From assembly GCA_036391495.1 (NCBI GenBank), contig DASVZT010000063.1, forward strand, positions 1 through 38,398: a stretch of 38,398 nt of DNA, written 5' to 3'. The notes under the pieces were generated by a model, which saw nothing but the letters and a program-made list of their open reading frames with translations, ran no database searches and was not told where the DNA came from. Within the stretch, counting starts at the first letter, position 1, and the number at the start of each line of letters is the position of its first letter. Position numbers and translations under genes: made by a program. Positions 6,634 through 36,199 of this stretch are shown here, in pieces. This DNA comes from Candidatus Limnocylindrales bacterium. Lineage in GTDB: Bacteria > Chloroflexota > Limnocylindria > Limnocylindrales > CSP1-4.

Positions 6634-6636
6634 TCG
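6606..6636. repeat. 12-bp tandem repeat (ccatccgggcga), about 2.6 copies, at the annotated 5' end of ctaA-ctaB
   Basis: Read directly. It gives MVARMVARMV if translated, which makes the true start codon ambiguous. Confidence 0.8.
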
Positions 6637-6692
6637 GCTGCGCTCGGCTGGCCCGGGCGACCGCTCGGCCGCGCTCGGCTACGCTGTCGGAT

Positions 6693-19276: not shown

Positions 19277-19327
19277 GAGCAGTCAAGGTCCATTCGAACG
19301 CGCGCCGGCTCGGGCCCTCGCCGGCCG

Positions 19328-25456: not shown

Positions 25457-25511
25457 TCGTCCGCACGGGTTGCGCGGGCCCCGGAGGGGCCTGGAGGAGG
25501 AGACAAGACTC

Positions 25512-27305
25512 ATGACGTCAGTGAGCCGCGAGACTCCGTCGCTGTTCTTGAGGAACGCGACGGGTCTGGTCAAGGGCTGGTCCGGCTTCGACGCGTTCGT
25601 CTACTCGTTCATGTCGGTGAACCTGGTCACGCTGGGCATGTTCTACAGCCTGGCCGTGTTCGCCTTCGTCCCGGACGGATCGCCCGTGATGGCGATCGTC
25701 ATCTCGGCCATCGCCGTGACGTTCCTGGCGATCGCCTACGCCGGCCTGATCGCCGTCATGCCGCGGGCCGGCGGCGACTACGTCTGGCAGAGCCGGGTGC
25801 TCGACGGTCTGGCCGGGATCGTCACCGGGGCCGTCGTCGGCGGCGTGACCGGGCTCGTCGTCGGCATGGTCACCCTGGGCGGGGCAGCCGGACCCGTGAT
25901 CCTCGGGATCGTCGGGGCTGTCGTCGGCGGAGCGATCGGCCGGCTGCGCGGCGGCATCGGGTTCGTCCTCGCCGCGACCGGCTGGTGGTTCATCCTCGCC
26001 CAGTGGGCGCCGATCTACGGGTCGATCCTGAAGATCGAGTTCCTGCAGCCGCTGGCGGCGCTCGCAGGCTGGTCCGCGGGCGTCGACTTCTTCAACTCGG
26101 CCAACGGCGGCTTCGCGGCGTCGCTCATCGTCATCGTCCTGACGACGTTGCTCGTCTCGCTCGGGATGGCCGGATATGCGCGCGTCCAGCGCTGGAGCCT
26201 CTGGTTCGGGCTCGCCGGCCTGGTCGTCATGTTCATCCTGTTGATCGTCTTCAGCCAGGCCGACTTCCAGAATGCGTTCGACAAGGCGTCGAGCGACCTG
26301 TTCGGAGTCGGGGGTGCCTACGCGAAGACTGTCGCCCAGGCGGCGAGCAACAAGGACGTCGGTTACTCCGGGAGCCTCGATCCGCTCGCCATCGGCGGTG
26401 GGACCTGGCTGCTGATCCCGTTCATGATGTTCTGGATCCTCTACCCGAACTGGGGCTCGACCCTCTACGGTGAGGTCCGGGGTTCGGGCGACTTCCGCAA
26501 GGTCCTGCGCGGCATGCTGGGCGGCATCTGGGTGACGGCGGCTCTCGCGGTCGTCTTCGTCCTGCTCGCGGCGAAGACCTTCGGCTGGACGTTCTTCAAC
26601 GCCGCCAACGTCAACTACATCGACTACTCGTACGGCTACACCCAGACGGCGCCGATCATCCCCATCTGGACCTACCCGCCGCTCATCGCCTCGTTCCTGA
26701 TCGACAACCGCCTCTTCCAGATGGCCTTCGTCGTCGTCTTCGGGGCCTGGTTCCTGGGCTGGTCGGGGACCCTGTTCCTGTCGTCGACGCGGATGATCTT
26801 CGCCGCCGCGTTCGACCGCGTCCTCCCGGAAGCGGCCGCTCGCGTGTCGGAGCGCCGGGCCGTGCCATGGGTGGCGCTGCTGCTGATCATGGTGCCGTCG
26901 GTCGTCGTCGCCTGGCTGTACGCCTACCAGAGCGGCTTCTATCCGCTCACGCTCGACGCGTCACTGGTCATCGCCGTGACCTTCTTCGGAACCGCGATCG
27001 CGGCGACCATCCTGCCGTACTGGAAGAAGGACCTGTACGAGAAGTCCCCGATCGCGAGGCAGAAGGTCGCCGGGATCCCCCTGATCACGATCGGCGGAGC
27101 GGTGACCGTCCTGGTCCTCGGCTGGACCATCTACGAGTGGCTGTCGAACTCGCTGTACGGCATCGGGGTCGGCAACGCACTCTCGATCGAGTACCTCGCC
27201 GTGCTCTACGGCGCAGGGGTCGTCATCTACGTGGCTGCCTATCTCTACCGGCGGTCGCAAGGGGTCGACCTCGGCAAGATCCACCAGGAGATCCCGTCGG
27301 AGTAA
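25512..27305 (+). CDS. APC-superfamily amino acid/amine permease
   Basis: ATG at 25512 preceded by GGAGGAGGAG. About 12 or more hydrophobic helices. MPRAGGDYVW is the typical APC motif. Confidence 0.75.
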   Translation: MTSVSRETPSLFLRNATGLVKGWSGFDAFVYSFMSVNLVTLGMFYSLAVFAFVPDGSPVMAIVISAIAVTFLAIAYAGLIAVMPRAGGDYVWQSRVLDGLAGIVTGAVVGGVTGLVVGMVTLGGAAGPVILGIVGAVVGGAIGRLRGGIGFVLAATGWWFILAQWAPIYGSILKIEFLQPLAALAGWSAGVDFFNSANGGFAASLIVIVLTTLLVSLGMAGYARVQRWSLWFGLAGLVVMFILLIVFSQADFQNAFDKASSDLFGVGGAYAKTVAQAASNKDVGYSGSLDPLAIGGGTWLLIPFMMFWILYPNWGSTLYGEVRGSGDFRKVLRGMLGGIWVTAALAVVFVLLAAKTFGWTFFNAANVNYIDYSYGYTQTAPIIPIWTYPPLIASFLIDNRLFQMAFVVVFGAWFLGWSGTLFLSSTRMIFAAAFDRVLPEAAARVSERRAVPWVALLLIMVPSVVVAWLYAYQSGFYPLTLDASLVIAVTFFGTAIAATILPYWKKDLYEKSPIARQKVAGIPLITIGGAVTVLVLGWTIYEWLSNSLYGIGVGNALSIEYLAVLYGAGVVIYVAAYLYRRSQGVDLGKIHQEIPSE

Positions 27306-27338: not shown

Positions 27339-27364
27339 GCGAGGCGGCCGAGAGGCCGCCTCGC
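27339..27364. terminator. Strong GC hairpin (11-bp stem, GAGA loop) between convergent genes
   Basis: gcgaggcggcc-gaga-ggccgcctcgc, preceded by a second hairpin gcccact-cc-agtgggc (27313-27328). There is no U-tract, so the terminator function is inferred. Confidence 0.5.
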
Positions 27365-27427: not shown

Positions 27428-28237
27428 TCAGCGGGCCACCGTCGTCAGGCCGGGATCGCCCTCCCGCGCGGGCTGACCGTCGCGCATCGCCGAGGCACGC
27501 AAGCGGGCCGAGACGCGGGCGGCCGAGGCGACGATCTCCGCCTCGATGACCTCCTCGGCGCCCGCCGCCGGGAAGCGGTACGTCGGCCCGTGGACGTGCA
27601 CGGCCGCCACCATCTCGCCGTGGGCGTCGGCGACCGGCGCCGCGATCGAGTTGATGCCCTCGGCGTACTCTCCGATCCCCCACGCGAAGCCGTCCCGGGT
27701 GGCGGCGGCGACACGCTCCCGGAGGACCGCGGCGGTCGTGACCGTGCGCGAGGTGAACCGCTCGAGCGGCCGCTCGAGATAGCGCGCGACGGCCGCATCG
27801 GGGAGCGACGCGAGCAGGACGATCCCCGACGGCACCGCGTGGAGCGGCGCCCGCGTCCCCGTCCAGTCGCGGACCCTGACCGGGTTCGGCGTCTCGACCT
27901 GGTCGACGTAGTGGACGCTCGTCCCGTCCAGGATCGACAGCCCCGTGGCCTCGCCGCAGCGTCGGGCGAGGTCGACGAGCTCCGGGTGGGCCAGCGCGAC
28001 GATGTTGCGCGTCGGCAGGACCGAGGCCGCGAGCGTGGCCAGCCGGGCGCCGATGCGGTAGTCCGTGCCGGCGGCGATCTGCTCGACCGCCCCCTCGCCC
28101 GCGAGCGTCGCGAGCAGGCGCGCGACCGTGCTCTTCGGCAGCCCGACGCGATCGGCGATCTCCGTCACGCCGAGCGGACCCTCACCGAGAGCCGAAAGCA
28201 CGGCGAAGGCTCGCTCGATGCTCTGGACTCTCGACAT
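27428..28237 (-). CDS. IclR-family transcriptional regulator
   Basis: N-terminal wHTH (SIERAFAVLSAL...LGVTEIADRVGLPKSTVARLL) and a C-terminal IclR effector domain. ATG 28237 has GGAGG 5 nt upstream. Confidence 0.85.
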   Translation of the reverse strand: MSRVQSIERAFAVLSALGEGPLGVTEIADRVGLPKSTVARLLATLAGEGAVEQIAAGTDYRIGARLATLAASVLPTRNIVALAHPELVDLARRCGEATGLSILDGTSVHYVDQVETPNPVRVRDWTGTRAPLHAVPSGIVLLASLPDAAVARYLERPLERFTSRTVTTAAVLRERVAAATRDGFAWGIGEYAEGINSIAAPVADAHGEMVAAVHVHGPTYRFPAAGAEEVIEAEIVASAARVSARLRASAMRDGQPAREGDPGLTTVAR

Positions 28238-28261
28238 CGCCACCTCCGATCCGGTAATGTG

Positions 28262-28295
28262 GTTCCATCATACGGCACCGTTCCATATCGTGGAA
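28262..28295. promoter_or_regulatory. Candidate operator: GTTCCAT direct repeat plus the inverted repeat TTCCA-N5-TGGAA
   Basis: gttccat at 28262 and 28280; ttccatatcgtggaa at 28281-28295. Lies in the AT-richer divergent region between iclR and the corrinoid operon. Confidence 0.4.
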
Positions 28296-28351
28296 TAGAG
28301 GACCGAACGGCGACCGTGCGGGACGAACACGACAGGGAGCAGACCGGGGAC

Positions 28352-29050
28352 ATGGCAGACGAGACGAACGAGCTCGACCTGAACGCCCTCTCCGACGACG
28401 AGCTCGTCGAGCAGATGCACAACGACCTCTACGACGGCATGGCGGCCGAGGTCGCCGAGGGCACCAACATCCTGCTCGCGCGCGGCTGGACGGCAAGCCA
28501 GGTCCTCGAGGACGCGCTCGTGGCGGGCATGAAGATCGTCGGCATCGACTTCCGCGACGGGATCCTCTTCGTCCCCGAGGTCCTGCTCGCGGCCAACGCC
28601 ATGAAGGCGGGCATGGCGATCCTGCGGCCGCTGCTCGCGGAGACCGGCGCCGAGCCGATCGGGAAGGTCGTCATCGGCACCGTCAAGGGCGACATCCACG
28701 ACATCGGCAAGAACCTCGTCGGCATGATGCTCGAGGGGGCCGGGTTCGAGGTCATCGACCTCGGCATCAACACCGACGCCGACAAGTTCATCGCCGCGCT
28801 GGAGGCCCACAAGCCCGACATCCTCGGCATGTCCGCGCTGCTCACCACGACCATGCCGTACATGAAGGTCGTCATCGAGACGCTGAAGGAACGCGGCATG
28901 CGCGACGACTTCATCGTCCTCGTCGGCGGCGCGCCGCTCAACGAGGAGTTCGGCCGGGCCGTCGGGGCCGACGCGTACTGCCGTGATGCCGGCGTGGCCG
29001 CCGAGACGGCCCGGGCGCTCATCGAGAGGCGGCGTGCCAGCGTCGCCTAG
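28352..29050 (+). CDS. Cobalamin-binding corrinoid protein (methyltransferase cognate, MtgC/MttC-like)
   Basis: ATG at 28352. N-terminal helical cap domain. B12-binding DxHxxG (GDIHDIGKN), SALLTTT and VLVGGAP motifs. Confidence 0.85.
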   Translation: MADETNELDLNALSDDELVEQMHNDLYDGMAAEVAEGTNILLARGWTASQVLEDALVAGMKIVGIDFRDGILFVPEVLLAANAMKAGMAILRPLLAETGAEPIGKVVIGTVKGDIHDIGKNLVGMMLEGAGFEVIDLGINTDADKFIAALEAHKPDILGMSALLTTTMPYMKVVIETLKERGMRDDFIVLVGGAPLNEEFGRAVGADAYCRDAGVAAETARALIERRRASVA

Positions 29051-29750
29051 CGTCGCCGCGATGGCCGCGGACGCTGCCGCTCTTCCGAACGCTCCCCGGC
29101 CGACCGGCGAGCGCGTCCTCGTCGTGGCCTGCGGCGCCCTCGCGCGAGAGATCCTCGGCGTCCTCGAGCGGGCCGGTCTCGACCACGTCGACGTCGCCTG
29201 CCTCTCGGCGCAGCTCCACATGCGTCCGGGACGCATCGCCGACGCCGTGGCGGCCAAGATCCGCGAGCGCCGCGACGGCTATGACCGCGTCTTCGTCGCG
29301 TATGCCGACTGCGGGACCGGCGGCGCCCTCGACCGCGTCCTGGCCGAGCCGGACCTGGCCGGCATCGAGCGCCTTCCCGGCGCCCATTGCTACGAGCTGT
29401 ACGCGGGCGCGAAGGCGTTCGAGCAGCTGGCCGACGAGGAGCCGGGCACCTTCTACCTGACCGACTTCCTGACCCGCTCATTCGACGCTCTCGTCATCAA
29501 GGGCCTGGGTCTCGACCGCCACCCGGAGCTCCTCGAGCTCTACTTCGGGAACTACCGGCGGCTGGTGTACCTGGCGCAGTCGGACGATCCGGCGCTGGTC
29601 GACGAGGCCAGGGCGGCCGCCGAGCGGCTCGGGCTCGAGTTCGAGCTGCGGCGCACGGGCTACGGCGAGCTCGAGCCGTTCCTCCTGGCCGGCACGAGCG
29701 GCGGCACGAGCGCCGCCACGACCACGGGCTTCCAGGCGGGAGCGGCCTGA
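29034..29750 (+). CDS. DUF1638-family protein
   Basis: RVLVVACGALAREI, VFVAYADCGTGGALD, GAHCYELY and FYLTDFL match my recollection of DUF1638. GTG 29034 has GAGAGG upstream; ATG 29061 is an alternative start. The stop shares 1 nt with the next start. Confidence 0.65.
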   Translation: MPASPSVAAMAADAAALPNAPRPTGERVLVVACGALAREILGVLERAGLDHVDVACLSAQLHMRPGRIADAVAAKIRERRDGYDRVFVAYADCGTGGALDRVLAEPDLAGIERLPGAHCYELYAGAKAFEQLADEEPGTFYLTDFLTRSFDALVIKGLGLDRHPELLELYFGNYRRLVYLAQSDDPALVDEARAAAERLGLEFELRRTGYGELEPFLLAGTSGGTSAATTTGFQAGAA

Positions 29751-30097
29751 TGCCCCCGGTCCTGACCGTCATCTACTGGCGCGACATCCCCGCCCAGGTC
29801 GTCGCGAAGGACGGCCGCCGCTCGAGCAAGATCGTCCTCCATCCGCGCTTCCAGGTCGCCATCGACCGGGCCGCCGTCAAGGCCGGCCGGCGCGAGATGG
29901 ACGCCTACATCGCCGAGTGGCGCAAAGAGCAGCGCCCGTGCGACGACGATCTGGAGACAGTCGCGCACGGCGAGGCCGACCGCCTCGAGGCCCAGTACAC
30001 GAGGGACGTCCTCGCCCGTCTCGTCGAGAGCGGTGGAGTGGACGAGCTGGCCCAGGATCCCACCTCATCCCCCGCCATCGAGGAGCCTGCACCGTGA
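29750..30097 (+). CDS. Small 'virulence factor'-annotated family protein (Virulence_fact-like)
   Basis: MPPVLTVIYWRDIPAQVVAKDGRR...AIDRAAVKAGRREMDAYIAEWRK matches the YWRDIPAQV-type family seen next to corrinoid methyltransferases (from memory; needs HMM confirmation). Confidence 0.55.
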   Translation: MPPVLTVIYWRDIPAQVVAKDGRRSSKIVLHPRFQVAIDRAAVKAGRREMDAYIAEWRKEQRPCDDDLETVAHGEADRLEAQYTRDVLARLVESGGVDELAQDPTSSPAIEEPAP

Positions 30098-31011
30098 CCG
30101 CGCCGCGCACCGTCATCGCCTCGCCCCGGAAGGAAGTCGTCATCGGCGGCGGGAACCGCTTCGTCGTCATCGGCGAGCGGATCAATCCGACCGGCCGCAA
30201 GCTCCTCGCCGAGGAGATGAAGAACGGCGACTTCAGCCGCGTCGAGACCGACGCGGTCGCCCAGGTCGCCGCCGGGGCCCACATGCTCGACGTCAACGCC
30301 GGCATCCCGCTCGCCGACGAGCCGGGCATCCTGGCCAGGACCGTCCAGCTCGTCCAGTCGCTCGTCGACGTCCCGCTCTCGATCGACAGCTCGATCGTCG
30401 ACGCCCTGGAGGCGGGACTCGCCGTCTACAAGGGCAAGGCGCTCGTCAACTCGGTCACCGGCGAGGAGGAGCGCCTCGAGCGCGTCCTGCCGCTCGTCCG
30501 GAAGTACGGCGCGGCCGTCGTGGCGATCAGCAACGACGACACCGGGATCTCGACCGATCCGGACGTCCGCTTCGCCGTCGCGAAGAAGATCGTCGAGCGG
30601 GCGGCCGACCACGGCATCCCGCGCGAGGACATCGTCGTCGACCCGCTCGTCATGCCGATCGGAGCGATGGCCACGGCCGGGCAGCAGGTCTTCCGCCTGC
30701 TCCGGCGCCTCCACGACGAGCTCCACGTCAACACGACCTGCGGCGCGTCGAACGTCAGCTTCGGCCTGCCGAACCGCGAAGGGATCAACGCGTCGTTCCT
30801 GGCGATGGCGATCTCGAACGGCCTCACGAGCGCGATCACGAACCCGCTGCTCGAGGAGGTGAAGCACGCCATCATGGCCGCCGACGTGCTGATGGGTCAC
30901 GACCAGGACGCCGCGACGTGGATCCGCGCTTTCCGACAGGCGCCCGTGGACGAGTCGCGCGGCCGGCGCGTCAACCGGCGCACCCTCGCCGGCGCCGGGG
31001 CGCAGGGCTAG
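30094..31011 (+). CDS. Methyltetrahydrofolate:corrinoid methyltransferase (pterin-binding, MtgA/AcsE/MetH-domain-like)
   Basis: GTG 30094 overlaps the upstream TGA (GTGA), with GAGGAG upstream. VIGERINPTGRK, MLDVN, SIDSS, VNSV and CGASNVSFGLP are pterin-binding TIM-barrel motifs. Confidence 0.85.
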   Translation: MTAPRTVIASPRKEVVIGGGNRFVVIGERINPTGRKLLAEEMKNGDFSRVETDAVAQVAAGAHMLDVNAGIPLADEPGILARTVQLVQSLVDVPLSIDSSIVDALEAGLAVYKGKALVNSVTGEEERLERVLPLVRKYGAAVVAISNDDTGISTDPDVRFAVAKKIVERAADHGIPREDIVVDPLVMPIGAMATAGQQVFRLLRRLHDELHVNTTCGASNVSFGLPNREGINASFLAMAISNGLTSAITNPLLEEVKHAIMAADVLMGHDQDAATWIRAFRQAPVDESRGRRVNRRTLAGAGAQG

Positions 31012-31033
31012 CGGACCCGGAGCGGAGAGCGAC

Positions 31034-33229
31034 GTGGCGCCGACGGGCGAGCCGCTCGTCATCTTCACGCCGTCGGGACGGCGCGCCCGCGTCCCCCTCG
31101 GCACGAACCTGCTCGACACCGCGCGCGGGCTGGGAGTCGACATCGACTCGGTCTGCGGCGGCCGGGGCATCTGCGGTCGCTGCCAGGTCCGCCAGAGCAT
31201 CGGGACGTTCGCCAAGCACGGCATCACGTCGAGCGCCGACCACCTGGCCGAGCCGGGCGAGGCCGAGGAGCGCTACCGCGCCGAGAAGGGCCTCGCGCCC
31301 GATCGCCGCCTGTCGTGCCTGACCAGCGTCTGCGGCGACGTCGTCATCGACGTCCCGCCCGAGAGCCAGGTCCACCGCCAGGTCGTCCGCAAGGGCATCG
31401 ACGTGCGGACGTTCAAGATCGATCCGGTCGTGAGTCTCCATTACGTCGAGGTCGAGCGGCCGACGCTCGCCTCGCCGAGCGGCGACCTCGCCCGGCTCCT
31501 CGCGGCGCTCGAGCGGGAGTGGGAGGTCCACGAGGCCGTCGCGGACCTCGCGGTCGTCCGCGCCCTCCAGCCCGCGCTCGAGAAGGGCGGCTACGCGGTC
31601 ACCGTCGCGCTGCATGAGCGCAGGGAGGTCATCGCGATCTGGCCGGGCTTCCGCGACAAGGCGTACGGCGTCGCGATCGACGTCGGATCGACGACGATCG
31701 CGGGCCACCTCGCCGACCTCGCCGACGGCCGCGTCCTCGCCTCGAACGGCGTCATGAACCCGCAGATCCGCTTCGGCGAGGACCTCATGAGCCGCGTCTC
31801 GTACGCGATGATGCATCCGGACGGAGCGGCCGAGATGACCCGGGCGGTTCGCGGCGCGCTCGACGGGCTCGTCTCGGGTCTCGCGGCGGCGGCCGGCATC
31901 CCGATCGACGCCGTCCTCGCGCTGACGATCGTCGGGAACCCGATCATGCATCACCTCGTGCTCGGCATCGACCCGATCCCGCTCGGCTCGGCACCGTTCG
32001 CCCTGGCCACCGATCGAGCCGTCGCGACGACCGCGCACGAGCTCGAGATCAGCGCCAACGCCGGCGCCCGCGTCTACGTCCTGCCCTGCATCGCCGGACA
32101 CGTCGGGGCCGACACGGCCGGCGTCATCCTCGCCGAGGAGCCGCAGCGCGCGACGCGGATGGAGCTGGTCGTCGACGTCGGGACGAACGCCGAGATCGTC
32201 CTCGGCAACCGCGACGGCCTGCTCGCGGCCTCCTCGCCGACGGGCCCCGCCTTCGAGGGGGCGCAGATCTCGGCGGGCCAGCGCGCCGCCCCGGGAGCGA
32301 TCGAGCGCGTCCGGATCGACCGCCAGACGCTCGAGCCGCGCTTCCGCGTCATCGGCGTCGACGCCTGGTCGGACGACCCGGCGTTCGCCCGGCGTGTCCG
32401 GAAGACAGGCGTCACGGGTATCTGCGGCTCGGGCATCGTCGAGGTCATCGCCGAGCTCTACCTGGCCGGCGTCATCACGCCCGACGGCATCGTCGACGGC
32501 TCGCTCGCGGAGCGGACGTGCCGCATCGTTCCCGACGGCAGGACGTTCAGCTACGTCCTCTACGACCCGGCCGAGCACGCGACCCCGAGCTCGAACGGCC
32601 GGGCGGCGGGCCCGGATGGCCAGGAGCCGGGCCCCGACGTGCACGCGTCGCCGGAGCCGACGGCGCGCATCCTCGTCACCCAGAACGACGTGCGCGCCGT
32701 CCAGCTGGCCAAGGCCGCCCTCTACGCCGGGACGCGGCTGCTCATGGACCACGCCGGCATCGACCACGTCGACGACGTCCGCCTCGCCGGCGCGTTCGGC
32801 AGCCAGATCGACCCGTTCCACGCGCTCGTGCTCGGACTCGTCCCCGACTGCGACCTCGATCACGTCAAGCCGGCCGGCAACGCGGCCGGGACGGGTGCCC
32901 TCATCGCCCTGCTGTCGAAGAAGGCACGGAACGAGATCGAGGCCGTCGTCCGGTCGGTCGAGAAGGTCGAGACGGCCGTCGAGCCCCGCTTCCAGGAGCA
33001 TTTCGTGGATGCGATGGCCTTCCCCCATCGCATCGCGCCCTATCCGAACCTCGAGCGCATCGTCACGCTGCCACGGGCCGCGCGCCCGGGCGAGGGACAG
33101 CCGGGCCGCGCGCGCCGGACCAACCGCAGGAACATGGCCGCCGGCGAGGCGGCGCGGGCCGCCCAGGGCGCGGCGCAGGCAGCCGTCGAGGCGACAGAGA
33201 CCGCCGTCGCGGCGAAGGAGGATCGATGA
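31034..33229 (+). CDS. RamA-like reductive activator of corrinoid enzymes (2Fe-2S ferredoxin domain plus ASKHA ATPase domain)
   Basis: N-terminal CGGRGICGRCQV...LSC ferredoxin motif. Central GVAIDVGSTTIAGHL and LVVDVGTNAEIVLG ASKHA phosphate motifs. GTG 31034 with GGAGAG upstream. Confidence 0.8.
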   Translation: MAPTGEPLVIFTPSGRRARVPLGTNLLDTARGLGVDIDSVCGGRGICGRCQVRQSIGTFAKHGITSSADHLAEPGEAEERYRAEKGLAPDRRLSCLTSVCGDVVIDVPPESQVHRQVVRKGIDVRTFKIDPVVSLHYVEVERPTLASPSGDLARLLAALEREWEVHEAVADLAVVRALQPALEKGGYAVTVALHERREVIAIWPGFRDKAYGVAIDVGSTTIAGHLADLADGRVLASNGVMNPQIRFGEDLMSRVSYAMMHPDGAAEMTRAVRGALDGLVSGLAAAAGIPIDAVLALTIVGNPIMHHLVLGIDPIPLGSAPFALATDRAVATTAHELEISANAGARVYVLPCIAGHVGADTAGVILAEEPQRATRMELVVDVGTNAEIVLGNRDGLLAASSPTGPAFEGAQISAGQRAAPGAIERVRIDRQTLEPRFRVIGVDAWSDDPAFARRVRKTGVTGICGSGIVEVIAELYLAGVITPDGIVDGSLAERTCRIVPDGRTFSYVLYDPAEHATPSSNGRAAGPDGQEPGPDVHASPEPTARILVTQNDVRAVQLAKAALYAGTRLLMDHAGIDHVDDVRLAGAFGSQIDPFHALVLGLVPDCDLDHVKPAGNAAGTGALIALLSKKARNEIEAVVRSVEKVETAVEPRFQEHFVDAMAFPHRIAPYPNLERIVTLPRAARPGEGQPGRARRTNRRNMAAGEAARAAQGAAQAAVEATETAVAAKEDR

Positions 33230-34767
33230 CCGAGGAGACCGTCCGCCGACGTCCGGGAGGCCGCGAGAGCCGGCGAGCGGCGCGACTCGCGTCCCACGTC
33301 GCACGCCAGCCGTTCCTGACGCGCAAGCTCGCGCCGTTCGAGATCCTCGACGAGGAGGGACTGTCGCTCCTCGAGGAGAACGCCGAGACGATCCTCGAGG
33401 AGGTCGGCGTCGAGTTCCGCGGCGACCCGGCCGCCCTCGACCTGCTGCGCAACGCGGGCGGCGACGTCGACGGCGAGCTCGTCCGCTTCCCGCGCGGCAT
33501 GTGTCGCCGGATCGTCCAGGCGACGGCGCCGCGCCAGTACACGCAGTACGCACGGAACCCCGCCAACAACGTCGAGATCGGCGGGATGAACACGGTCTTC
33601 GCGCCGAACTACGGCTCGCCCTTCGTGCGCGACCTCGACGGCGGCCGCCGTTACGGCACGATCGAGGACTTCCGCAACTTCGTGAAGCTCGTCTACATGA
33701 GCCCCCACCTCCACCACAGCGGGGGCACGATCTGCGAGCCCGTCGACGTGCCCGTCAACAAGCGGCACCTCGACATGATCTACGCCCACCTGCGCTACAC
33801 CGACAAGCCGTTCATGGGCTCGGTGACGGCCGCCGAGCGCGCCTACGACACCGTCGAGATGGCGAAGATCGTCTTCGGCGCCGACTTCGTCGACCAGAAC
33901 GCGGTCATCACGAGCCTCATCAACGCCGCGTCGCCCCTGGTGTGGGACTCCTCGATGCTCGGCGCCGCCCGCGCCTACGCGGAGAACAACCAGGCGACGC
34001 TCATCACGCCGTTCATCCTCGCCGGCGCGATGGCGCCGGTGACGTCCGCCGCCGTCTGCGCCCAGACCCTCGCCGAGGCGCTGGCAGGCATGGCGTTCGT
34101 CCAGCTCGTCCGCCCGGGCGCGCCGGTCGTCTTCGGCTCCTTCGCCAGCTCGATGTCGATGCAGACGGGCGCCCCGACGTTCGGCACGCCCGAGCCCGCC
34201 CTCGTCCTCTACGTCATGGCCGCGCTCGCCCGCCGTCTCGGCGTGCCGTTCCGCTCTGGCGGCGCGCTCTGCGCCAGCAAGCTTCCCGATGCGCAGGCGG
34301 CCTACGAGTCGGCGGCGACGATGCAGCCGACGATCCTCGCCGGCGTCAACTTCGTCCTCCACACCGCGGGCTGGCTCGAAGGGGGCCTCACGATGAGCTA
34401 CGAGAAGCTCATCCTCGACGCCGACCAGGCCGGGATGCTGGCTGTCTTCGCCCAGGGCATGGACCTCTCGGAGAACAGCCAGGGCCTCGCCGCGTTCCGC
34501 GAGGGCACGCCCGGCGTGCACTTCCTCGGCAGCGCTCATACCCTGGCCAACTTCGAGACGGCGTTCTATCGCAGCGAGACGGCCAACTACGACTCCTTCG
34601 AGCAGTGGTCCGAGGAGGGCGCCAAGGACGCCGCGACGCGGGCGAACGCGGTCTGGAAGCGGATGCTGGCCGAGTACGAGCAGCCGCCGATGGACCCCGG
34701 GATCGACGAGGCGCTGCTCGAGTTCATCGCCCGGCGCAAGGCGTCCATGCCGGACGCCCTGTCGTAG
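33226..34767 (+). CDS. MttB-superfamily methyltransferase, non-pyrrolysine type (quaternary amine / glycine betaine:corrinoid methyltransferase-like)
   Basis: ATG 33226 overlaps the upstream stop (ATGA). A 513-codon uninterrupted ORF with no in-frame TAG. LSLLEENAETILEEVGVEF, ...PLVWD..., LITPFILAGAMAPVT and FVLHTAGWLEGGL are typical of the trimethylamine methyltransferase (MttB) fold family. Confidence 0.8.
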   Translation: MTEETVRRRPGGRESRRAARLASHVARQPFLTRKLAPFEILDEEGLSLLEENAETILEEVGVEFRGDPAALDLLRNAGGDVDGELVRFPRGMCRRIVQATAPRQYTQYARNPANNVEIGGMNTVFAPNYGSPFVRDLDGGRRYGTIEDFRNFVKLVYMSPHLHHSGGTICEPVDVPVNKRHLDMIYAHLRYTDKPFMGSVTAAERAYDTVEMAKIVFGADFVDQNAVITSLINAASPLVWDSSMLGAARAYAENNQATLITPFILAGAMAPVTSAAVCAQTLAEALAGMAFVQLVRPGAPVVFGSFASSMSMQTGAPTFGTPEPALVLYVMAALARRLGVPFRSGGALCASKLPDAQAAYESAATMQPTILAGVNFVLHTAGWLEGGLTMSYEKLILDADQAGMLAVFAQGMDLSENSQGLAAFREGTPGVHFLGSAHTLANFETAFYRSETANYDSFEQWSEEGAKDAATRANAVWKRMLAEYEQPPMDPGIDEALLEFIARRKASMPDALS

Positions 34768-34781
34768 CCTAAGGTCGCGTC

Positions 34782-34811
34782 GGCCGGCGCCCGCGTCCCC
34801 GGGCGCCGGCC
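34782..34811 (+). promoter_or_regulatory. Intercistronic 12-bp GC hairpin between the mttB homolog and the MTHFR gene
   Basis: ggccggcgcccg-cgtccc-cgggcgccggcc. There is no U-tract. Followed by a C-rich stretch and the ATG at 34830. Confidence 0.4.
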
Positions 34812-34829
34812 GTCCCCTCCCCCACCCCG

Positions 34830-35702
34830 ATGCCTCGTCGACTGGCCGACCTCCCGAGCGACCAGCGCGCCGCGATCGTCGCGCTCCTCCGCGCGCCGAC
34901 GTTCGAGCTCATCCCGCTCAAGAACGCCCACGAGCAGGCGGCCTTCCTGCCGGACGGCTCGCTCGTCTCGGTGACGGCGTCGCCGGCGAAGGGAATCGAG
35001 GCGACCGTCGAGCTTGCCGAGCAGCTGGCGTCCGTCGGTCACCGCCCCGTCGTCCACCTCTCGGCGCGGATGATCCGCGACCGCGCCCACCTCCGGGCGC
35101 TGCTCGATCGCCTCGCGGCCGGGGGCCTCGACCGCGCCTTCGTCGTCGGCGGCGACGCGGACGTGCCAGGCGAGTTCCGCGACGCCCTGTCGCTGCTGCG
35201 CGCGATGGCCGAGATGGGGCACGCGCTGCGGGAGATCGGCATCGGCTGCTACCCCGACGGCCACCCCGACATCCCCGACGACGCACTCGTGGGCGCCCTC
35301 CACGCCAAGGCGCCGTACGCAAGCTACATGACGACGCAGATGTGCTTCGACCCGCGCAAGATCGGCGGGTTCATCGCGGCGCGCCGATCCGAGGGCATCG
35401 CCCTCCCGGTCCATCTCGGTCTGCCAGGCGTCGCCGAGGTTGCCAAACTGGCGCTCATCTCGGCACGGATCGGGGTCAAGGATTCGAAGCGGTTCATGCG
35501 CAAGAACGTGCGCCTCGTCGGCCAGCTCGTCCGGCCGGGCGGCTACCGCCCCGATGGGCTGCTCGAGTCGCTCGGGGATGTCCTCGCCGACCCGACGGCG
35601 AGGGTCGACGATCTCCACGTGTACACGTTCAACCAGGTCGAGACGACCGAGGAGTGGCGGCGCGGCTACCTGCGCGCGCTGCGCGAGGAGGACCAGGCAT
35701 GA
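34830..35702 (+). CDS. metF: Methylenetetrahydrofolate reductase family protein
   Basis: FELIPLKN, VSVTASP, the HLSAR region, VVGGD, IGCYPDGHP and the MTTQMCFD region resemble the MTHFR (PF02219-type) TIM barrel. Confidence 0.75.
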   Translation: MPRRLADLPSDQRAAIVALLRAPTFELIPLKNAHEQAAFLPDGSLVSVTASPAKGIEATVELAEQLASVGHRPVVHLSARMIRDRAHLRALLDRLAAGGLDRAFVVGGDADVPGEFRDALSLLRAMAEMGHALREIGIGCYPDGHPDIPDDALVGALHAKAPYASYMTTQMCFDPRKIGGFIAARRSEGIALPVHLGLPGVAEVAKLALISARIGVKDSKRFMRKNVRLVGQLVRPGGYRPDGLLESLGDVLADPTARVDDLHVYTFNQVETTEEWRRGYLRALREEDQA

Positions 35703-36199
35703 GCGGAGATGGCGACAACGGGAGCGGGATCGGCGCCCGACCGAACCGCGCGGCGGTCGTCGAGCGCCTGGCGTCCGCGCCTGAGCGCCTGGAGACGGCT
35801 GCCCGACTGGCGGCGGTCGCCGTCGCCGCGGCGGGCGGGACCGGGGGCGAATGGAGCCCCGTCGAGAACGTCCGCCACCTCATCGCCGTCGAGGGCGCCG
35901 TCTGGCACGGCCGTTTGCGGGCCCTCGAGCTGGCCGAGCCCGGTATCGAGCCGCGCTGGGCATGGGCCGAGCCGACATTCGACGACGGACCGGCCGACCG
36001 TTCGCTCGAGGAGGTGCTGGCGACCTTCGCCGGGCGGCGGTTCGCGACGATCGCGATGCTCGCGGCGCTCGACGACGCGGGCTGGGCCCGAACGGGGATC
36101 CACGCGACCTATGGCCGCCTCGACGTATCCGGGCTCATGCGGACGGCGGCCGACCACGACGACGAGCACATCGAGACCCTGAAGAGACTCGGGCGCTGA
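35699..36199 (+). CDS. DinB-superfamily (DinB_2-like) protein
   Basis: ATG 35699 overlaps the MTHFR stop (ATGA). His residues are spaced as in DinB four-helix bundles (NVRHLIAVE...WHG...DHDDEHIETL). Confidence 0.55.
   Translation: MSGDGDNGSGIGARPNRAAVVERLASAPERLETAARLAAVAVAAAGGTGGEWSPVENVRHLIAVEGAVWHGRLRALELAEPGIEPRWAWAEPTFDDGPADRSLEEVLATFAGRRFATIAMLAALDDAGWARTGIHATYGRLDVSGLMRTAADHDDEHIETLKRLGR

What the first reader, a model, noticed from the sequence alone, without database searches (positions are those of the whole stretch)
27428..36199. Complete non-pyrrolysine MttB-family corrinoid methyl-transfer operon, of unknown substrate, in a heme-A (aerobic-type) genome
Eight translationally coupled genes follow a divergent IclR regulator. 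In order they encode the corrinoid protein, DUF1638, a 'virulence-factor'-family protein, methyl-THF:corrinoid methyltransferase (MT2), a RamA-like 2Fe-2S/ASKHA reductive activase, an MttB homolog (MT1, no in-frame amber), MTHFR and a DinB protein. An APC permease lies immediately upstream. This is everything needed to strip a methyl group from a quaternary or methylated amine and pass it via Co(I)-corrinoid to THF, then oxidise it to methylene-THF. Characterised non-Pyl MttB enzymes (glycine betaine, proline betaine, carnitine and gamma-butyrobetaine methyltransferases) come from strict anaerobes. Here the same window encodes a fused heme A/heme O synthase, which implies an aa3-type oxidase lifestyle. 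The substrate, how an O2-sensitive Co(I) cycle is sustained, and the roles of the fused-in MTHFR and DinB genes are not explained by described systems.
Basis: partly seen in the sequence, partly recalled or inferred. Interest (0 to 1): 0.75.

Follow-up and report, generated by a model that had tools for sequence, protein, structure and literature searches.

The report
Aerobic-type corrinoid glycine-betaine demethylation operon
This is a real, complete vitamin-B12-dependent operon for removing a methyl group from a quaternary amine, most likely glycine betaine; the same system was described in aerobic bacteria in 2025, so this is a new, compact member from a different phylum, not a new kind of system.

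Summary

- **Already described in aerobes.** Corrinoid-dependent MttB-family demethylation is known in aerobes as MtgBCD plus a RamA-like activase, DUF1638 and MetF2 in Ruegeria pomeroyi and Sinorhizobium meliloti (PMC12478193; PMC5764234). Six window proteins are 50-72% identical to the S. meliloti cluster.
- **MTHFR explained.** It resembles the methyl-THF-oxidising S6MTHFR family (PMC11868366).
- **Widely conserved.** The same operon order recurs in 60 of 66 related loci from Chloroflexota (Limnocylindrales-like, about 80% MttB identity), Actinomycetota and Alphaproteobacteria.
- **Substrate most likely glycine betaine.** Sibling loci carry dimethylglycine-dehydrogenase-like genes (20), ETF (about 25) and BetA/BetB-like genes. 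Three of four experimentally defined MtgB betaine-contact residues are conserved. The fourth (F356) is Gly, with an invariant Trp nearby, so specificity is not proven.

Still unexplained are the PF13769 'virulence factor' protein (66 of 66 loci, no literature, no fold match), DUF1638 and the lineage-restricted DinB.

Verdict: new member of a known kind; modest interest.

The parts
25470..27305 (+). APC-superfamily permease (611 aa). It is a possible substrate importer but is not in the operon, being convergent with IclR.
   Evidence: AA_permease_2 at 29.5 bits against a cut-off of 27. A 58-74% identical homologue lies upstream of the operon in only one related locus, L087, where an aldehyde dehydrogenase lies between it and IclR. 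It is absent from the other loci, although most of those have only about 2.4 kb of upstream flank.
27428..28243 (-). Divergently transcribed IclR-family regulator.
   Evidence: HTH_IclR 59 bits and IclR_C 127 bits. An IclR homologue is present in 51 of 66 related loci, at about 61% identity in the Chloroflexota loci.
28261..28296 (.). Candidate IclR operator in the IclR/corrinoid-protein intergenic region. It consists of a half-site, GGTTCCATCATACGG, and a palindrome, GTTCCATATCGTGGAA.
   Evidence: GGTTCCATCATACGGCACGGTTCCACGATGTGGAAC, or close variants of it, recurs in the same intergenic region of all 16 Chloroflexota-type loci inspected. The exact TTCCA-N5-TGGAA palindrome is found in 12 of them. 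A related TTCCAC-N3-GTGGA motif occurs in Acidimicrobiia loci. Function is inferred, not shown.
28352..29050 (+). Corrinoid (cobalamin-binding) protein, MtgC-like, with the DxHxxG motif (GDIHDIG).
   Evidence: B12-binding_2 and B12-binding domains. The best NCBIfam match is glycine betaine-specific corrinoid protein MtgC at 215 bits, below the cut-off of 370. It is 72% identical to the S. meliloti cluster protein and 84-89% identical to most Chloroflexota relatives.
29061..29750 (+). DUF1638 protein, an accessory factor for corrinoid reactivation whose mechanism is unknown.
   Evidence: PF07796 at 103 bits. It is 51% identical to the S. meliloti cluster protein. Genetic requirement in P. inhibens is reported in PMC5764234. 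C24, C84, H109 and C110 are invariant in 32 homologues. The AF2 model has pLDDT 87.5, with no convincing PDB fold match.
29750..30097 (+). PF13769 'Virulence_fact' small protein, a universally co-occurring component of unknown role.
   Evidence: PF13769 at 77 bits. It is present in 66 of 66 related loci and in the S. meliloti cluster next to the MTHFR genes. No paper mentions PF13769. The AF2 model has pLDDT 82, with no PDB fold match.
30094..31011 (+). Methyl-corrinoid:tetrahydrofolate methyltransferase (MT2; MtgD/MtgA-like).
   Evidence: Pterin_bind at 101 bits. NCBIfam PRK07535 at 366 bits, above its cut-off of 259. It is 64% identical to the S. meliloti 'methyltetrahydrofolate cobalamin methyltransferase'.
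31034..33229 (+). RACo-type ATP-dependent reductive activase, with an N-terminal 2Fe-2S ferredoxin domain followed by RACo linker, middle and ASKHA domains.
   Evidence: Fer2, RACo_linker, Raco_middle and RACo_C_ter domains. It scores below the AcsV and RamA equivalog cut-offs. It is 55% identical to the S. meliloti ASKHA protein. The same architecture as the P. inhibens RamA-like protein is described in PMC5764234.
33226..34767 (+). Non-pyrrolysine MttB-superfamily substrate:corrinoid methyltransferase (MT1; MtgB-like).
   Evidence: PF06253 at 755 bits. PDB matches are 4yyc (S. meliloti) 715 bits, D. hafniense MtgB 2qne/9yce 407 bits at 43% identity, and Pyl-MttB 101 bits. Leu348 occupies the Pyl position. 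The pocket residues Y129, R343 and H379 are conserved, G387 replaces F356, and W383 is invariant.
34830..35702 (+). MTHFR of the S6MTHFR-like (CH3-THF-oxidising) kind; MetF2-like role.
   Evidence: Pfam MTHFR at 33 bits. PDB 7xg9 S6MTHFR scores 128 bits against 37 bits for T. thermophilus MTHFR. Properties of S6MTHFR are in PMC11868366. An MTHFR follows MttB in 53 of 66 loci. S6MTHFR L48 and R78 are Ser and Met here.
35699..36199 (+). DinB_2 superfamily protein. Its start overlaps the MTHFR stop by 4 nt. It is a lineage-specific accessory gene of unknown role.
   Evidence: DinB_2 at 57 bits. It is found near the operon only in Chloroflexota-type loci (16 of 66), and is sometimes displaced by several genes. 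There is only a weak PDB sequence match, TTHA0303 at E=0.002.

Best explanation
This is a self-contained operon of the aerobic MtgBCD type for corrinoid-dependent demethylation of a quaternary amine, most probably glycine betaine.

Inferred mechanism:

1. The MttB-family MT1 (33226-34767) binds the betaine. The carboxylate contacts R343 and H379, and the trimethylammonium group contacts Y129 and probably W383. MT1 presents a methyl group to the Co(I) form of the corrinoid protein (28352-29050), giving methyl-Co(III) and dimethylglycine.
2. The pterin-binding MT2 (30094-31011) passes the methyl group to tetrahydrofolate.
3. The S6MTHFR-like MTHFR (34830-35702) oxidises 5-methyl-THF to 5,10-methylene-THF for C1 oxidation or assimilation.
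4. When Co(I) is oxidised to inactive Co(II), for example by O2, the 2Fe-2S/ASKHA RACo-type activase (31034-33229) re-reduces it at the expense of ATP. DUF1638 and perhaps PF13769 assist.
5. The divergent IclR regulator controls the promoter through a conserved palindromic operator.

Status of the evidence:
- Shown here by sequence: domain content, orthology to the S. meliloti cluster, conservation of the operon, pocket residues, and neighbourhood genes.
- Inferred: every catalytic step, the substrate, and the regulation.

The host is probably an aerobic Chloroflexota of the Limnocylindria type. This is inferred from best hits and shared synteny only.
For: **Domain assignments.** All are above Pfam thresholds. 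MT2 is above its NCBIfam cut-off.

**Orthology to a described aerobic cluster.** Identities to the S. meliloti cluster are CoP 72%, MT2 64%, MttB 64%, RACo 55%, DUF1638 51% and PF13769 50%. That cluster also holds bmt (MtgE) and a glycine betaine/proline ABC transporter. It is the cluster described by Mausz et al. 2025.

**Published genetics and proteomics in aerobes.** These cover MtgC, MtgD, RamA-like, DUF1638 and MetF2 (PMC12478193; PMC5764234).

**Conservation.** The order CoP-DUF1638-PF13769-(MT2)-RACo-MttB is colinear in 60 of 66 loci across Chloroflexota, Acidimicrobiia, Thermoleophilia, Actinomycetes and Stellaceae.

**Substrate context in orthologous loci**:
- DAO-FAO_M-GCV_T (dimethylglycine/sarcosine dehydrogenase-like) genes in 20 loci.
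- ETF genes in about 25 loci.
- BetA-like GMC oxidoreductase in 13 loci and BetB-like aldehyde dehydrogenase in 4-5.
- The 67%-identical Azoarcus homologue sits beside betA, betB, a choline-binding protein, folD and ETF-QO.

**Pocket residues.** Three of the four betaine contacts of D. hafniense MtgB (Y97, R312, H348; PMC13080624) are conserved in the window protein and in all or nearly all of 89 homologues (R and H in 89, Y in 88).

**MTHFR.** It is closest to CH3-THF-oxidising S6MTHFR.

**Dedicated catabolic role.** Full-length canonical MetH lies just downstream in 9 related Chloroflexota loci. The operon is therefore not needed as a split methionine synthase there.
Against: - The fourth MtgB contact, F356, is Gly387 here. 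The compensating role of W383 is only a guess.
- The protein is 43% identical to biochemically characterised MtgB. MttB-family enzymes with 53% identity (MtcB and MtyB) have different preferred substrates (PMC8604678).
- No MtgB of the aerobic clade has been assayed in vitro. In R. pomeroyi the MtgB paralogues are implicated by proteomics only.
- The window itself contains no dimethylglycine dehydrogenase, ETF, betA/betB or BCCT/ABC betaine transporter within 38 kb.
- The corrinoid protein scores below the NCBIfam MtgC cut-off (215 against 370).
- The MTHFR lacks two residues highlighted for S6MTHFR (L48 to S, R78 to M). It has no detectable similarity to the MTHFR of the S. meliloti cluster.
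Confidence: 0.7

Rival explanations
1. The machinery and mechanism are the same, but MT1 acts on a different methylated compound, such as proline betaine, carnitine, gamma-butyrobetaine, choline or phosphocholine, trimethylamine, or an unknown quaternary amine.
For: The F356-equivalent is Gly, and the pocket motif WLEGG differs from ILQYF of MtgB. Identity to characterised MtgB is 43%. Specificity changes within this family occur at higher identity than that. R312 and H348 are also conserved in enzymes for other acidic quaternary amines. The window has an APC-type permease rather than a typical betaine transporter. S. meliloti 4yyc was deposited with an unknown ligand; this last point is from memory and was not checked here.
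Against: Dimethylglycine-dehydrogenase-like, ETF, BetA-like and BetB-like genes flank the orthologues in many genomes. The Azoarcus and S. meliloti orthologues sit in choline and betaine contexts. The aromatic Y97 that is specific to MtgB among characterised members is conserved. The pocket is invariant across all 88 orthologues, which suggests one common and abundant substrate.
Confidence: 0.2
2. The operon's main role is biosynthetic. The corrinoid protein and MT2 would form the core of a split methionine synthase, as in Phaeobacter inhibens, and the MttB protein would be an accessory methyl donor.
For: MtgC and MtgD are dual-function in R. pomeroyi, and the same five-gene logic was first found as a split MetH.
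Against: No homocysteine-binding (PF02574) gene lies in or near the operon. Related Chloroflexota genomes carry a complete MetH with its own activation domain 1.5-4 kb downstream of the operon. The MTHFR is of the oxidising kind. The catabolic neighbours are dimethylglycine dehydrogenase and ETF.
Confidence: 0.05
3. One reading: an unprecedented aerobic corrinoid methyl-transfer system with unknown substrate and unexplained oxygen tolerance.
For: PF13769, DUF1638 and DinB have no known mechanism. The phyla involved have not been discussed for this pathway.
Against: The same component set in aerobes has been published. The S. meliloti cluster contains every core component. Aerobic corrinoid methyl transfer, as in MetH and CmuAB, is long established (textbook knowledge for MetH).
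Confidence: 0.05

Closest known systems
Aerobic MtgBCD glycine betaine methyltransferase system of Ruegeria pomeroyi and Sinorhizobium meliloti (Mausz et al. 2025, PMC12478193)
   Same: It has the same component set: a non-Pyl PF06253 MT1, a B12-binding protein, a pterin-binding MT2, a ferredoxin+ASKHA activase, DUF1638 and a dedicated MTHFR. Proteins are 50-72% identical to those of the S. meliloti cluster, which also contains PF13769.
   Different: - Here all parts are in one compact operon with an IclR regulator. In R. pomeroyi they are scattered, and in S. meliloti they are spread over about 12 kb on both strands.
- No MtgE/bmt lies nearby.
- Relatives carry canonical MetH, so a dual role in methionine synthesis is unlikely.
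- The MTHFR is a single S6MTHFR-like protein, not the MTHFR plus MTHFR_C pair of S. meliloti.
- A DinB gene is appended.
- The host phylum is probably Chloroflexota rather than Pseudomonadota.
MtgABC of Desulfitobacterium hafniense (anaerobic glycine betaine:THF methyl transfer; MtgB structures 2qne and 9yce)
   Same: The three-component logic is the same. MT1 is 43% identical, with Leu at the Pyl position and with Y97, R312 and H348 conserved.
   Different: F356 is replaced by Gly, with Trp four residues after the His. According to Mausz et al. (PMC12478193), the aerobic-type corrinoid protein MtgC forms a lineage distinct from D. hafniense MtgC. The host carries heme A synthesis genes.
Split methionine synthase with RamA-like and DUF1638 reactivation proteins in Phaeobacter inhibens (Price et al. 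2018, PMC5764234)
   Same: It uses the same corrinoid protein, pterin-binding protein, ferredoxin+DUF4445 (RACo_C_ter) activase and DUF1638 module in an aerobically grown bacterium.
   Different: That system delivers methyl groups to homocysteine through a PF02574 subunit. The operon here has an MttB-family donor enzyme and an oxidising MTHFR instead.
CmuAB/MetF2 chloromethane pathway of Methylorubrum extorquens CM4, and the S6MTHFR family (PMC11868366)
   Same: It is an aerobic, corrinoid-dependent catabolic methyl transfer to THF, followed by oxidation of CH3-THF by a specialised MTHFR. The window MTHFR is closest to S6MTHFR.
   Different: MT1 belongs to a different family (the CmuA fusion rather than MttB). 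Two residues highlighted in S6MTHFR are not conserved here.
Pyrrolysine-containing trimethylamine methyltransferase MttB of methanogens
   Same: It has the same Pfam family (PF06253) and TIM-barrel superfamily.
   Different: There is no in-frame UAG, and Leu348 occupies the Pyl position. The score against TIGR02369 is 251 bits against a cut-off of 525, and only 101 bits to 7xcl. The common database label 'trimethylamine--corrinoid protein Co-methyltransferase' is therefore a misnomer for this clade.

Membership tests
Aerobic MtgBCD-type glycine betaine demethylation system (Mausz et al. 2025) | A non-pyrrolysine PF06253 methyltransferase (MtgB) | tested here: met
   PF06253 at 755 bits with no internal stop. 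It is 64% identical to the S. meliloti cluster protein (4yyc-like).
Aerobic MtgBCD-type glycine betaine demethylation system (Mausz et al. 2025) | A stand-alone cobalamin-binding protein (MtgC) and a pterin-binding methyltransferase (MtgD) | tested here: met
   PF02607+PF02310 and PF00809. They are 72% and 64% identical to the S. meliloti cluster proteins.
Aerobic MtgBCD-type glycine betaine demethylation system (Mausz et al. 2025) | A RamA-like (ferredoxin + ASKHA/DUF4445) activase and DUF1638 | tested here: met
   Domains. They are 55% and 51% identical to the S. meliloti proteins.
Aerobic MtgBCD-type glycine betaine demethylation system (Mausz et al. 2025) | A dedicated MTHFR paralogue (MetF2) that oxidises CH3-THF | tested here: inconclusive
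   An MTHFR follows MttB, and its best structural relative is the oxidising S6MTHFR. It has no detectable similarity to the S. meliloti cluster MTHFR. I could not obtain the R. pomeroyi MetF2 sequence for comparison.
Aerobic MtgBCD-type glycine betaine demethylation system (Mausz et al. 2025) | Requirement for growth on, or induction by, glycine betaine | not testable with these tools
   Only indirect evidence is available: dimethylglycine dehydrogenase-like, ETF, BetA-like and BetB-like genes next to orthologous operons.
Aerobic MtgBCD-type glycine betaine demethylation system (Mausz et al. 2025) | Dual use of MtgC/MtgD with a homocysteine-binding MtgE for methionine synthesis | tested here: not met
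   There is no PF02574 gene in the window. Related Chloroflexota loci carry a full MetH. The rest of the genome is unknown.
MtgB sensu stricto (glycine betaine:corrinoid methyltransferase, D. hafniense) | The betaine-contact residues Y97, R312 and H348 | tested here: met
   They correspond to Y129, R343 and H379. In 89 homologues R and H are invariant and Y is conserved in 88.
MtgB sensu stricto (glycine betaine:corrinoid methyltransferase, D. hafniense) | The second cation-pi aromatic residue, F356 | tested here: not met
   The aligned residue is Gly387. An invariant Trp383 lies four residues after the His.
MtgB sensu stricto (glycine betaine:corrinoid methyltransferase, D. hafniense) | [quoted passage not shown] | not testable with these tools
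   This needs a biochemical assay.
Pyrrolysine-dependent trimethylamine methyltransferase (MttB, TIGR02369) | An in-frame amber codon encoding pyrrolysine, and a score above the equivalog cut-off | tested here: not met
   Leu348 occupies the Pyl334 position. The score is 251 bits against a cut-off of 525. No pylT is present in the window.
RACo/RamA ATP-dependent reductive activases of corrinoid enzymes | An Fe-S domain plus RACo linker, middle and ASKHA ATPase domains | tested here: met
   Fer2 26 bits, RACo_linker 87, Raco_middle 159 and RACo_C_ter 278. It is below the equivalog cut-offs for AcsV (349 against 800) and RamA (90 against 500), so it is a family member but not either named orthologue.
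S6MTHFR-type CH3-THF-oxidising MTHFR (PMC11868366) | Conserved sequence fragments in loop beta2-alpha3, helix alpha8 and loop beta8-alpha11 | tested here: inconclusive
   It scores 128 bits to 7xg9 against 37 bits to canonical MTHFR. S6MTHFR L48 and R78 align with Ser and Met. The remaining fragments were not examined.

The most novel reading that the evidence does not exclude
The invariant YRH + WLEGG pocket may define an MttB-family enzyme class of aerobic soil and freshwater Chloroflexota and Actinomycetota whose specificity or binding mode differs from every characterised member. The universally linked but unstudied PF13769 protein, together with DUF1638 (invariant Cys24, Cys84, His109 and Cys110) and, in this lineage, DinB, may form a previously unrecognised module that keeps or restores Co(I) under oxic conditions.
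Probability: 0.12. Interest if true: 0.6.

Novelty: new member of a known kind. Interest (0 to 1): 0.3.

Why it matters
- **Ecology.** If the assignment holds, the aerobic cobalamin-dependent glycine betaine pathway is not confined to marine Pseudomonadota, where it was recognised only in 2025. It would also be a very highly conserved, single-operon trait of abundant soil and freshwater Chloroflexota (Limnocylindria-like) and Actinomycetota. The search returned at least 8000 homologues, and the top 120 are 78-83% identical.
- **Annotation.** MAG surveys currently count these genes as 'mttB' and as evidence of anaerobic trimethylamine methylotrophy (PMC11264602). This affects how such surveys read methylotrophy and B12 demand.
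- **A route to the unknown components.** The compact operon is a convenient minimal gene set for reconstituting the aerobic system. It could be used to find out what PF13769 and DUF1638 do.

Tried and rejected
1. **Exact-sequence look-up of the window MttB** in the assembly index found nothing, so the source sample remains unknown.
2. **Fold search with the PF13769 model** (pLDDT 82): best Foldseek E=0.12 and TM no higher than 0.27, so no assignment. The PDB sequence search also gave nothing.
3. **Fold search with the DUF1638 model** (pLDDT 87.5) returned only generic alpha/beta matches such as ATCase and FtsZ, with TM no higher than 0.29. I rejected these as uninformative.
4. **DinB** gave only a weak PDB sequence match (TTHA0303, E=0.002) and no NCBIfam family. 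No role could be proposed beyond 'DinB-fold, possibly metal- or thiol-dependent'.
5. **Cobalamin riboswitch or other Rfam elements**: none found in the window. The sigma-70 promoter and terminator scan was uninformative in this 72% GC DNA.
6. **Trimethylamine as substrate** was considered and rejected. There is no Pyl, the score is below TIGR02369, and the neighbours are dimethylglycine dehydrogenase and BetAB.
7. **Actinobacterial origin**, suggested by the high GC, was considered and rejected. The closest full-operon relatives, including DinB and the operator, are Limnocylindrales and 'Chloroflexia' MAGs.
8. **A full phylogeny** with MtpB, MtcB, MtyB, MthB and R. pomeroyi SPO2108/SPO2134 could not be built.

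Full report
**1. What is in the sequence**

The window has about 72% GC, so raw ORF lists are crowded with spurious frames. Third-position GC and start-codon inspection resolve one + strand gene string between 28352 and 36199, with a divergent gene at 27428-28243.

Pfam scans give these assignments:

- IclR regulator: HTH_IclR 59 bits, IclR_C 127 bits.
- Corrinoid protein: B12-binding_2 59, B12-binding 100.
- DUF1638: 103.
- PF13769 'Virulence_fact': 77.
- Pterin-binding methyltransferase: 101.
- A 731-aa protein with Fer2 (26), RACo_linker (87), Raco_middle (159) and RACo_C_ter/ASKHA (278).
- MttB-family protein: 755 bits, full length.
- MTHFR: 33 bits, weak but above threshold.
- DinB_2: 57.

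NCBIfam places MT2 above the cut-off of PRK07535, methyl-THF:corrinoid methyltransferase (366 against 259). The corrinoid protein is closest to 'glycine betaine-specific corrinoid protein MtgC' (215 bits, below the cut-off of 370). The MttB homologue is well below the Pyl-MttB equivalog (251 against 525).

The MttB ORF has no internal stop. The pyrrolysine of M. barkeri MttB (X334 of 7xcl) aligns with Leu348, as in MtgB. No pylT or riboswitch was detected.

The junctions are as follows:

| Junction | Relationship |
|---|---|
| Corrinoid protein / DUF1638 | 10-nt gap |
| DUF1638 / PF13769 | 1-nt overlap |
| PF13769 / MT2 | 4-nt overlap |
| MT2 / RACo | 22-nt gap |
| RACo / MttB | 4-nt overlap |
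| MttB / MTHFR | 62-nt gap |
| MTHFR / DinB | 4-nt overlap |

No + strand terminator-like site lies inside the string.

The upstream permease (25470-27305) barely passes AA_permease_2 and is convergent with IclR. The fused CtaA-CtaB protein (4609-6678, -) is real.

**2. It is a described system**

The best solved-structure match of the MttB homologue is 4yyc, a Sinorhizobium meliloti 'putative trimethylamine methyltransferase' (715 bits). D. hafniense MtgB comes next (407 bits, 43% identity), and Pyl-MttB is far behind (101 bits).

A tblastn search of plasmid and replicon records recovered the S. meliloti locus. Its annotation shows these genes within about 12 kb:

- a cobalamin-binding protein
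- DUF1638
- 'virulence factor'
- MTHFR plus an MTHFR C-terminal-domain protein
- methyl-THF:cobalamin methyltransferase
- an ASKHA protein
- the MttB-family gene
- a ferredoxin
- bmt
- a glycine betaine/proline ABC transporter

The window proteins are 72% (corrinoid protein), 64% (MT2), 64% (MttB), 55% (activase), 51% (DUF1638) and 50% (PF13769) identical to these.

This is the cluster discussed by Mausz et al. 2025 (PMC12478193). In aerobic Ruegeria pomeroyi, mtgC and mtgD knockouts lose growth on, and consumption of, glycine betaine. MttB-family MtgB paralogues, a RamA-like protein, DUF1638 and the MTHFR paralogue MetF2 are induced on betaine, choline and carnitine.

Price et al. 2018 (PMC5764234) had already shown by fitness genetics that a ferredoxin+DUF4445 'RamA-like' protein and a DUF1638 protein are required for a split, corrinoid-dependent methionine synthase in aerobically grown Phaeobacter inhibens. 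The statement that such systems are known only from strict anaerobes no longer holds.

Keeping Co(I) alive in air is handled in these systems by ATP-dependent reductive reactivation. Canonical MetH and the CmuAB chloromethane pathway handle the same problem in their own ways (MetH from general knowledge).

**3. The MTHFR**

The window MTHFR matches 7xg9 at 128 bits, against 37 bits for Thermus MTHFR. 7xg9 is S6MTHFR of Sphingobium lignivorans SYK-6. That enzyme oxidises CH3-THF, barely uses NADH, and defines an MTHFR group that partners THF-dependent demethylases, including CmuAB (PMC11868366).

This accounts for the MTHFR gene in the operon. It corresponds functionally to MetF2 of R. pomeroyi. 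Two caveats apply:

- S6MTHFR residues L48 and R78 align with Ser and Met.
- The protein shows no detectable similarity to the MTHFR of the S. meliloti cluster.

**4. Conservation and likely host**

The MttB homologue has thousands of relatives in metagenomes. The top 120 are 78-83% identical, and many are labelled 'trimethylamine--corrinoid protein Co-methyltransferase'.

A scan of species-representative genomes returned 80 loci. Those closest to the window (77-82%) are Limnocylindrales and 'Chloroflexia' MAGs. Acidimicrobiia, Ilumatobacteraceae, Thermoleophilia, Gaiellales, other Actinomycetota and Stellaceae follow at 68-74%.

Gene content among the 66 related loci that include the upstream region:

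| Gene | Loci (of 66) |
|---|---|
| PF13769 | 66 |
| Activase (RACo) | 65 |
| DUF1638 | 62 |
| MT2 | 57 |
| MTHFR | 53 |
| IclR | 51 |
| DinB | 16 |

Sixty loci are colinear for corrinoid protein, DUF1638, PF13769, activase and MttB. All 16 loci with DinB are of the Chloroflexota type.

The IclR/corrinoid-protein intergenic region carries a conserved motif, GGTTCCATCATACGG followed by GTTCCAC-N3-GTGGAAC. In the window it lies at 28261-28296. It recurs in all the Chloroflexota-type loci inspected and in variant form in Acidimicrobiia. It is a plausible IclR operator.

The shared DinB, the operator and the highest identities indicate a Limnocylindria-like Chloroflexota host. This is an inference, because the exact contig is not in the index.

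**5. Substrate**

Picking et al. 2026 (PMC13080624) defined the betaine site of D. hafniense MtgB by mutagenesis and a ligand-bound structure. Y97 and F356 make cation-pi contacts, and R312 and H348 contact the carboxylate. R312, and partly H348, are shared with enzymes for other acidic quaternary amines, but the aromatic pair is not.

In the window protein these residues are Y129, G387, R343 and H379. Trp383 lies four residues after the His. The pattern Y-R-H-W-G-G, with Leu at the Pyl position, is invariant in 88 of 89 homologues from the related loci. The motif test is therefore three of four. By itself it cannot fix specificity, especially as MtcB and MtyB are 53% identical yet prefer different substrates.

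Gene context is more telling:

- A DAO-FAO_M-GCV_T dehydrogenase, the architecture of dimethylglycine and sarcosine dehydrogenases, lies within the flanks of 20 orthologous loci.
- Electron-transfer flavoprotein genes lie in about 25 loci.
- A GMC oxidoreductase 48-52% identical to an annotated choline dehydrogenase lies in 13 loci.
- A BetB-like aldehyde dehydrogenase lies in 4-5 loci.
- The 67%-identical Azoarcus KH32C homologue lies beside betA, betB, a choline-binding protein, folD and ETF-QO.

Only glycine betaine links all of these. The window itself lacks such neighbours within 38 kb. Its only candidate transporter is the weakly matching permease, which recurs next to the operon in one other locus (L087). 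I put glycine betaine at about 0.7 and a different quaternary amine at about 0.2.

**6. Catabolic rather than biosynthetic**

Nine related Chloroflexota loci encode a complete five-domain MetH, including the PF02965 activation domain, 1.5-4 kb downstream of the operon. No homocysteine-binding MtgE-like gene is in the window. Unlike in roseobacters, the corrinoid protein and MT2 pair need not double as a methionine synthase here.

**7. What remains unexplained**

- **PF13769.** It is the most faithfully linked gene (66 of 66), yet no paper mentions the family. A confident AF2 model (pLDDT 82) has no PDB counterpart.
- **DUF1638.** It has an invariant set of residues including C24, C84, H109 and C110, which hints at a metal site. 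It gives a confident two-lobed alpha/beta model with no informative match.
- **DinB.** It is restricted to one lineage and is sometimes separated from the operon by other genes. I regard it as a loosely associated accessory gene.

**8. Verdict**

It belongs to the aerobic MtgBCD kind described in 2025 and is not a new system.

Three things are new:
- the taxonomic setting (Chloroflexota and Actinomycetota of soils and fresh waters);
- the compact IclR-controlled single-operon form, with an S6MTHFR-like MTHFR and DinB;
- the clade-wide pocket variant.

Surveys currently read these genes as anaerobic 'mttB' methylotrophy markers, and that reading deserves correction. Interest is modest, at 0.3.

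Noticed in passing
window 28261-28296; same intergenic region in L001-L019: A conserved motif lies between IclR and the corrinoid-protein gene: the half-site GGTTCCATCATACGG followed by the palindrome GTTCCA-N5-TGGAAC. It is nearly identical across Chloroflexota-type loci, and a related TTCCAC-N3-GTGGA motif occurs in Acidimicrobiia loci. It is probably the IclR operator.
   Followed up: partly
L001:12071-16036 (+); also L004, L005, L009, L010, L012, L013, L014, L018: A full-length canonical methionine synthase MetH (S-methyl_trans, Pterin_bind, B12-binding_2, B12-binding, Met_synt_B12) lies 1.5-4 kb downstream of the operon in nine related Chloroflexota genomes. It is not present within the 2.2 kb that remain downstream in the window.
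   Followed up: partly
window 29750-30097; 66 of 66 related loci; L081:7108-7410: The PF13769 'virulence factor' protein is the gene most constantly linked to this operon. It has no literature and no PDB fold relative. W10, D12-V17 (DIPAQV), R23, Y53 and W57 are invariant in 32 sequences that include proteobacterial ones. C64 is nearly invariant there and invariant among the 30 closest homologues.
   Followed up: partly
window 29061-29750: DUF1638 homologues share invariant Cys24, Cys84, His109 and Cys110, and a nearly invariant Cys47. This suggests a metal or Fe-S site, which nobody has reported for this reactivation-linked protein.
   Followed up: partly
L024, L027, L029, L031, L032, L034, L051, L054, L076: Nine Acidimicrobiia or Actinomycetes versions of the operon lack the MT2 (pterin-binding) gene between PF13769 and the activase. 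MT2 must be encoded elsewhere, or those lineages pass the methyl group on differently.
   Followed up: no
window 4609-6678 (-): A single 689-codon open frame (stop to stop; start codon not determined) fuses heme A synthase (COX15-CtaA, N-terminal) with heme O synthase (UbiA/CtaB, C-terminal). This is consistent with capacity for an aa3-type oxidase.
   Followed up: partly
window 25470-27305 and L087:569-2384: The weakly APC-like permease recurs (58-74% identity) upstream of the operon in one other Chloroflexota-type contig. There, an aldehyde dehydrogenase and IclR lie between it and the operon. It is a possible choline or betaine importer of an unrecognised type.
   Followed up: partly
window 27339-27364: A G+C-rich perfect hairpin (GCGAGGCGGCC-GAGA-GGCCGCCTCGC) sits between the convergent permease and IclR genes. 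It is probably a bidirectional terminator without a T-tract.
   Followed up: no
window 19279-19373 (-): ARAGORN calls a tRNA-Asp(GTC) that spans 95 nt, unusually long for this tRNA. I did not examine it.
   Followed up: no
one search hit list; PMC11264602: Many of the close homologues of this non-Pyl enzyme listed are named 'trimethylamine--corrinoid protein Co-methyltransferase' in public annotations. MAG surveys count such genes as anaerobic methylotrophy markers, which is probably a systematic mis-annotation.
   Followed up: no
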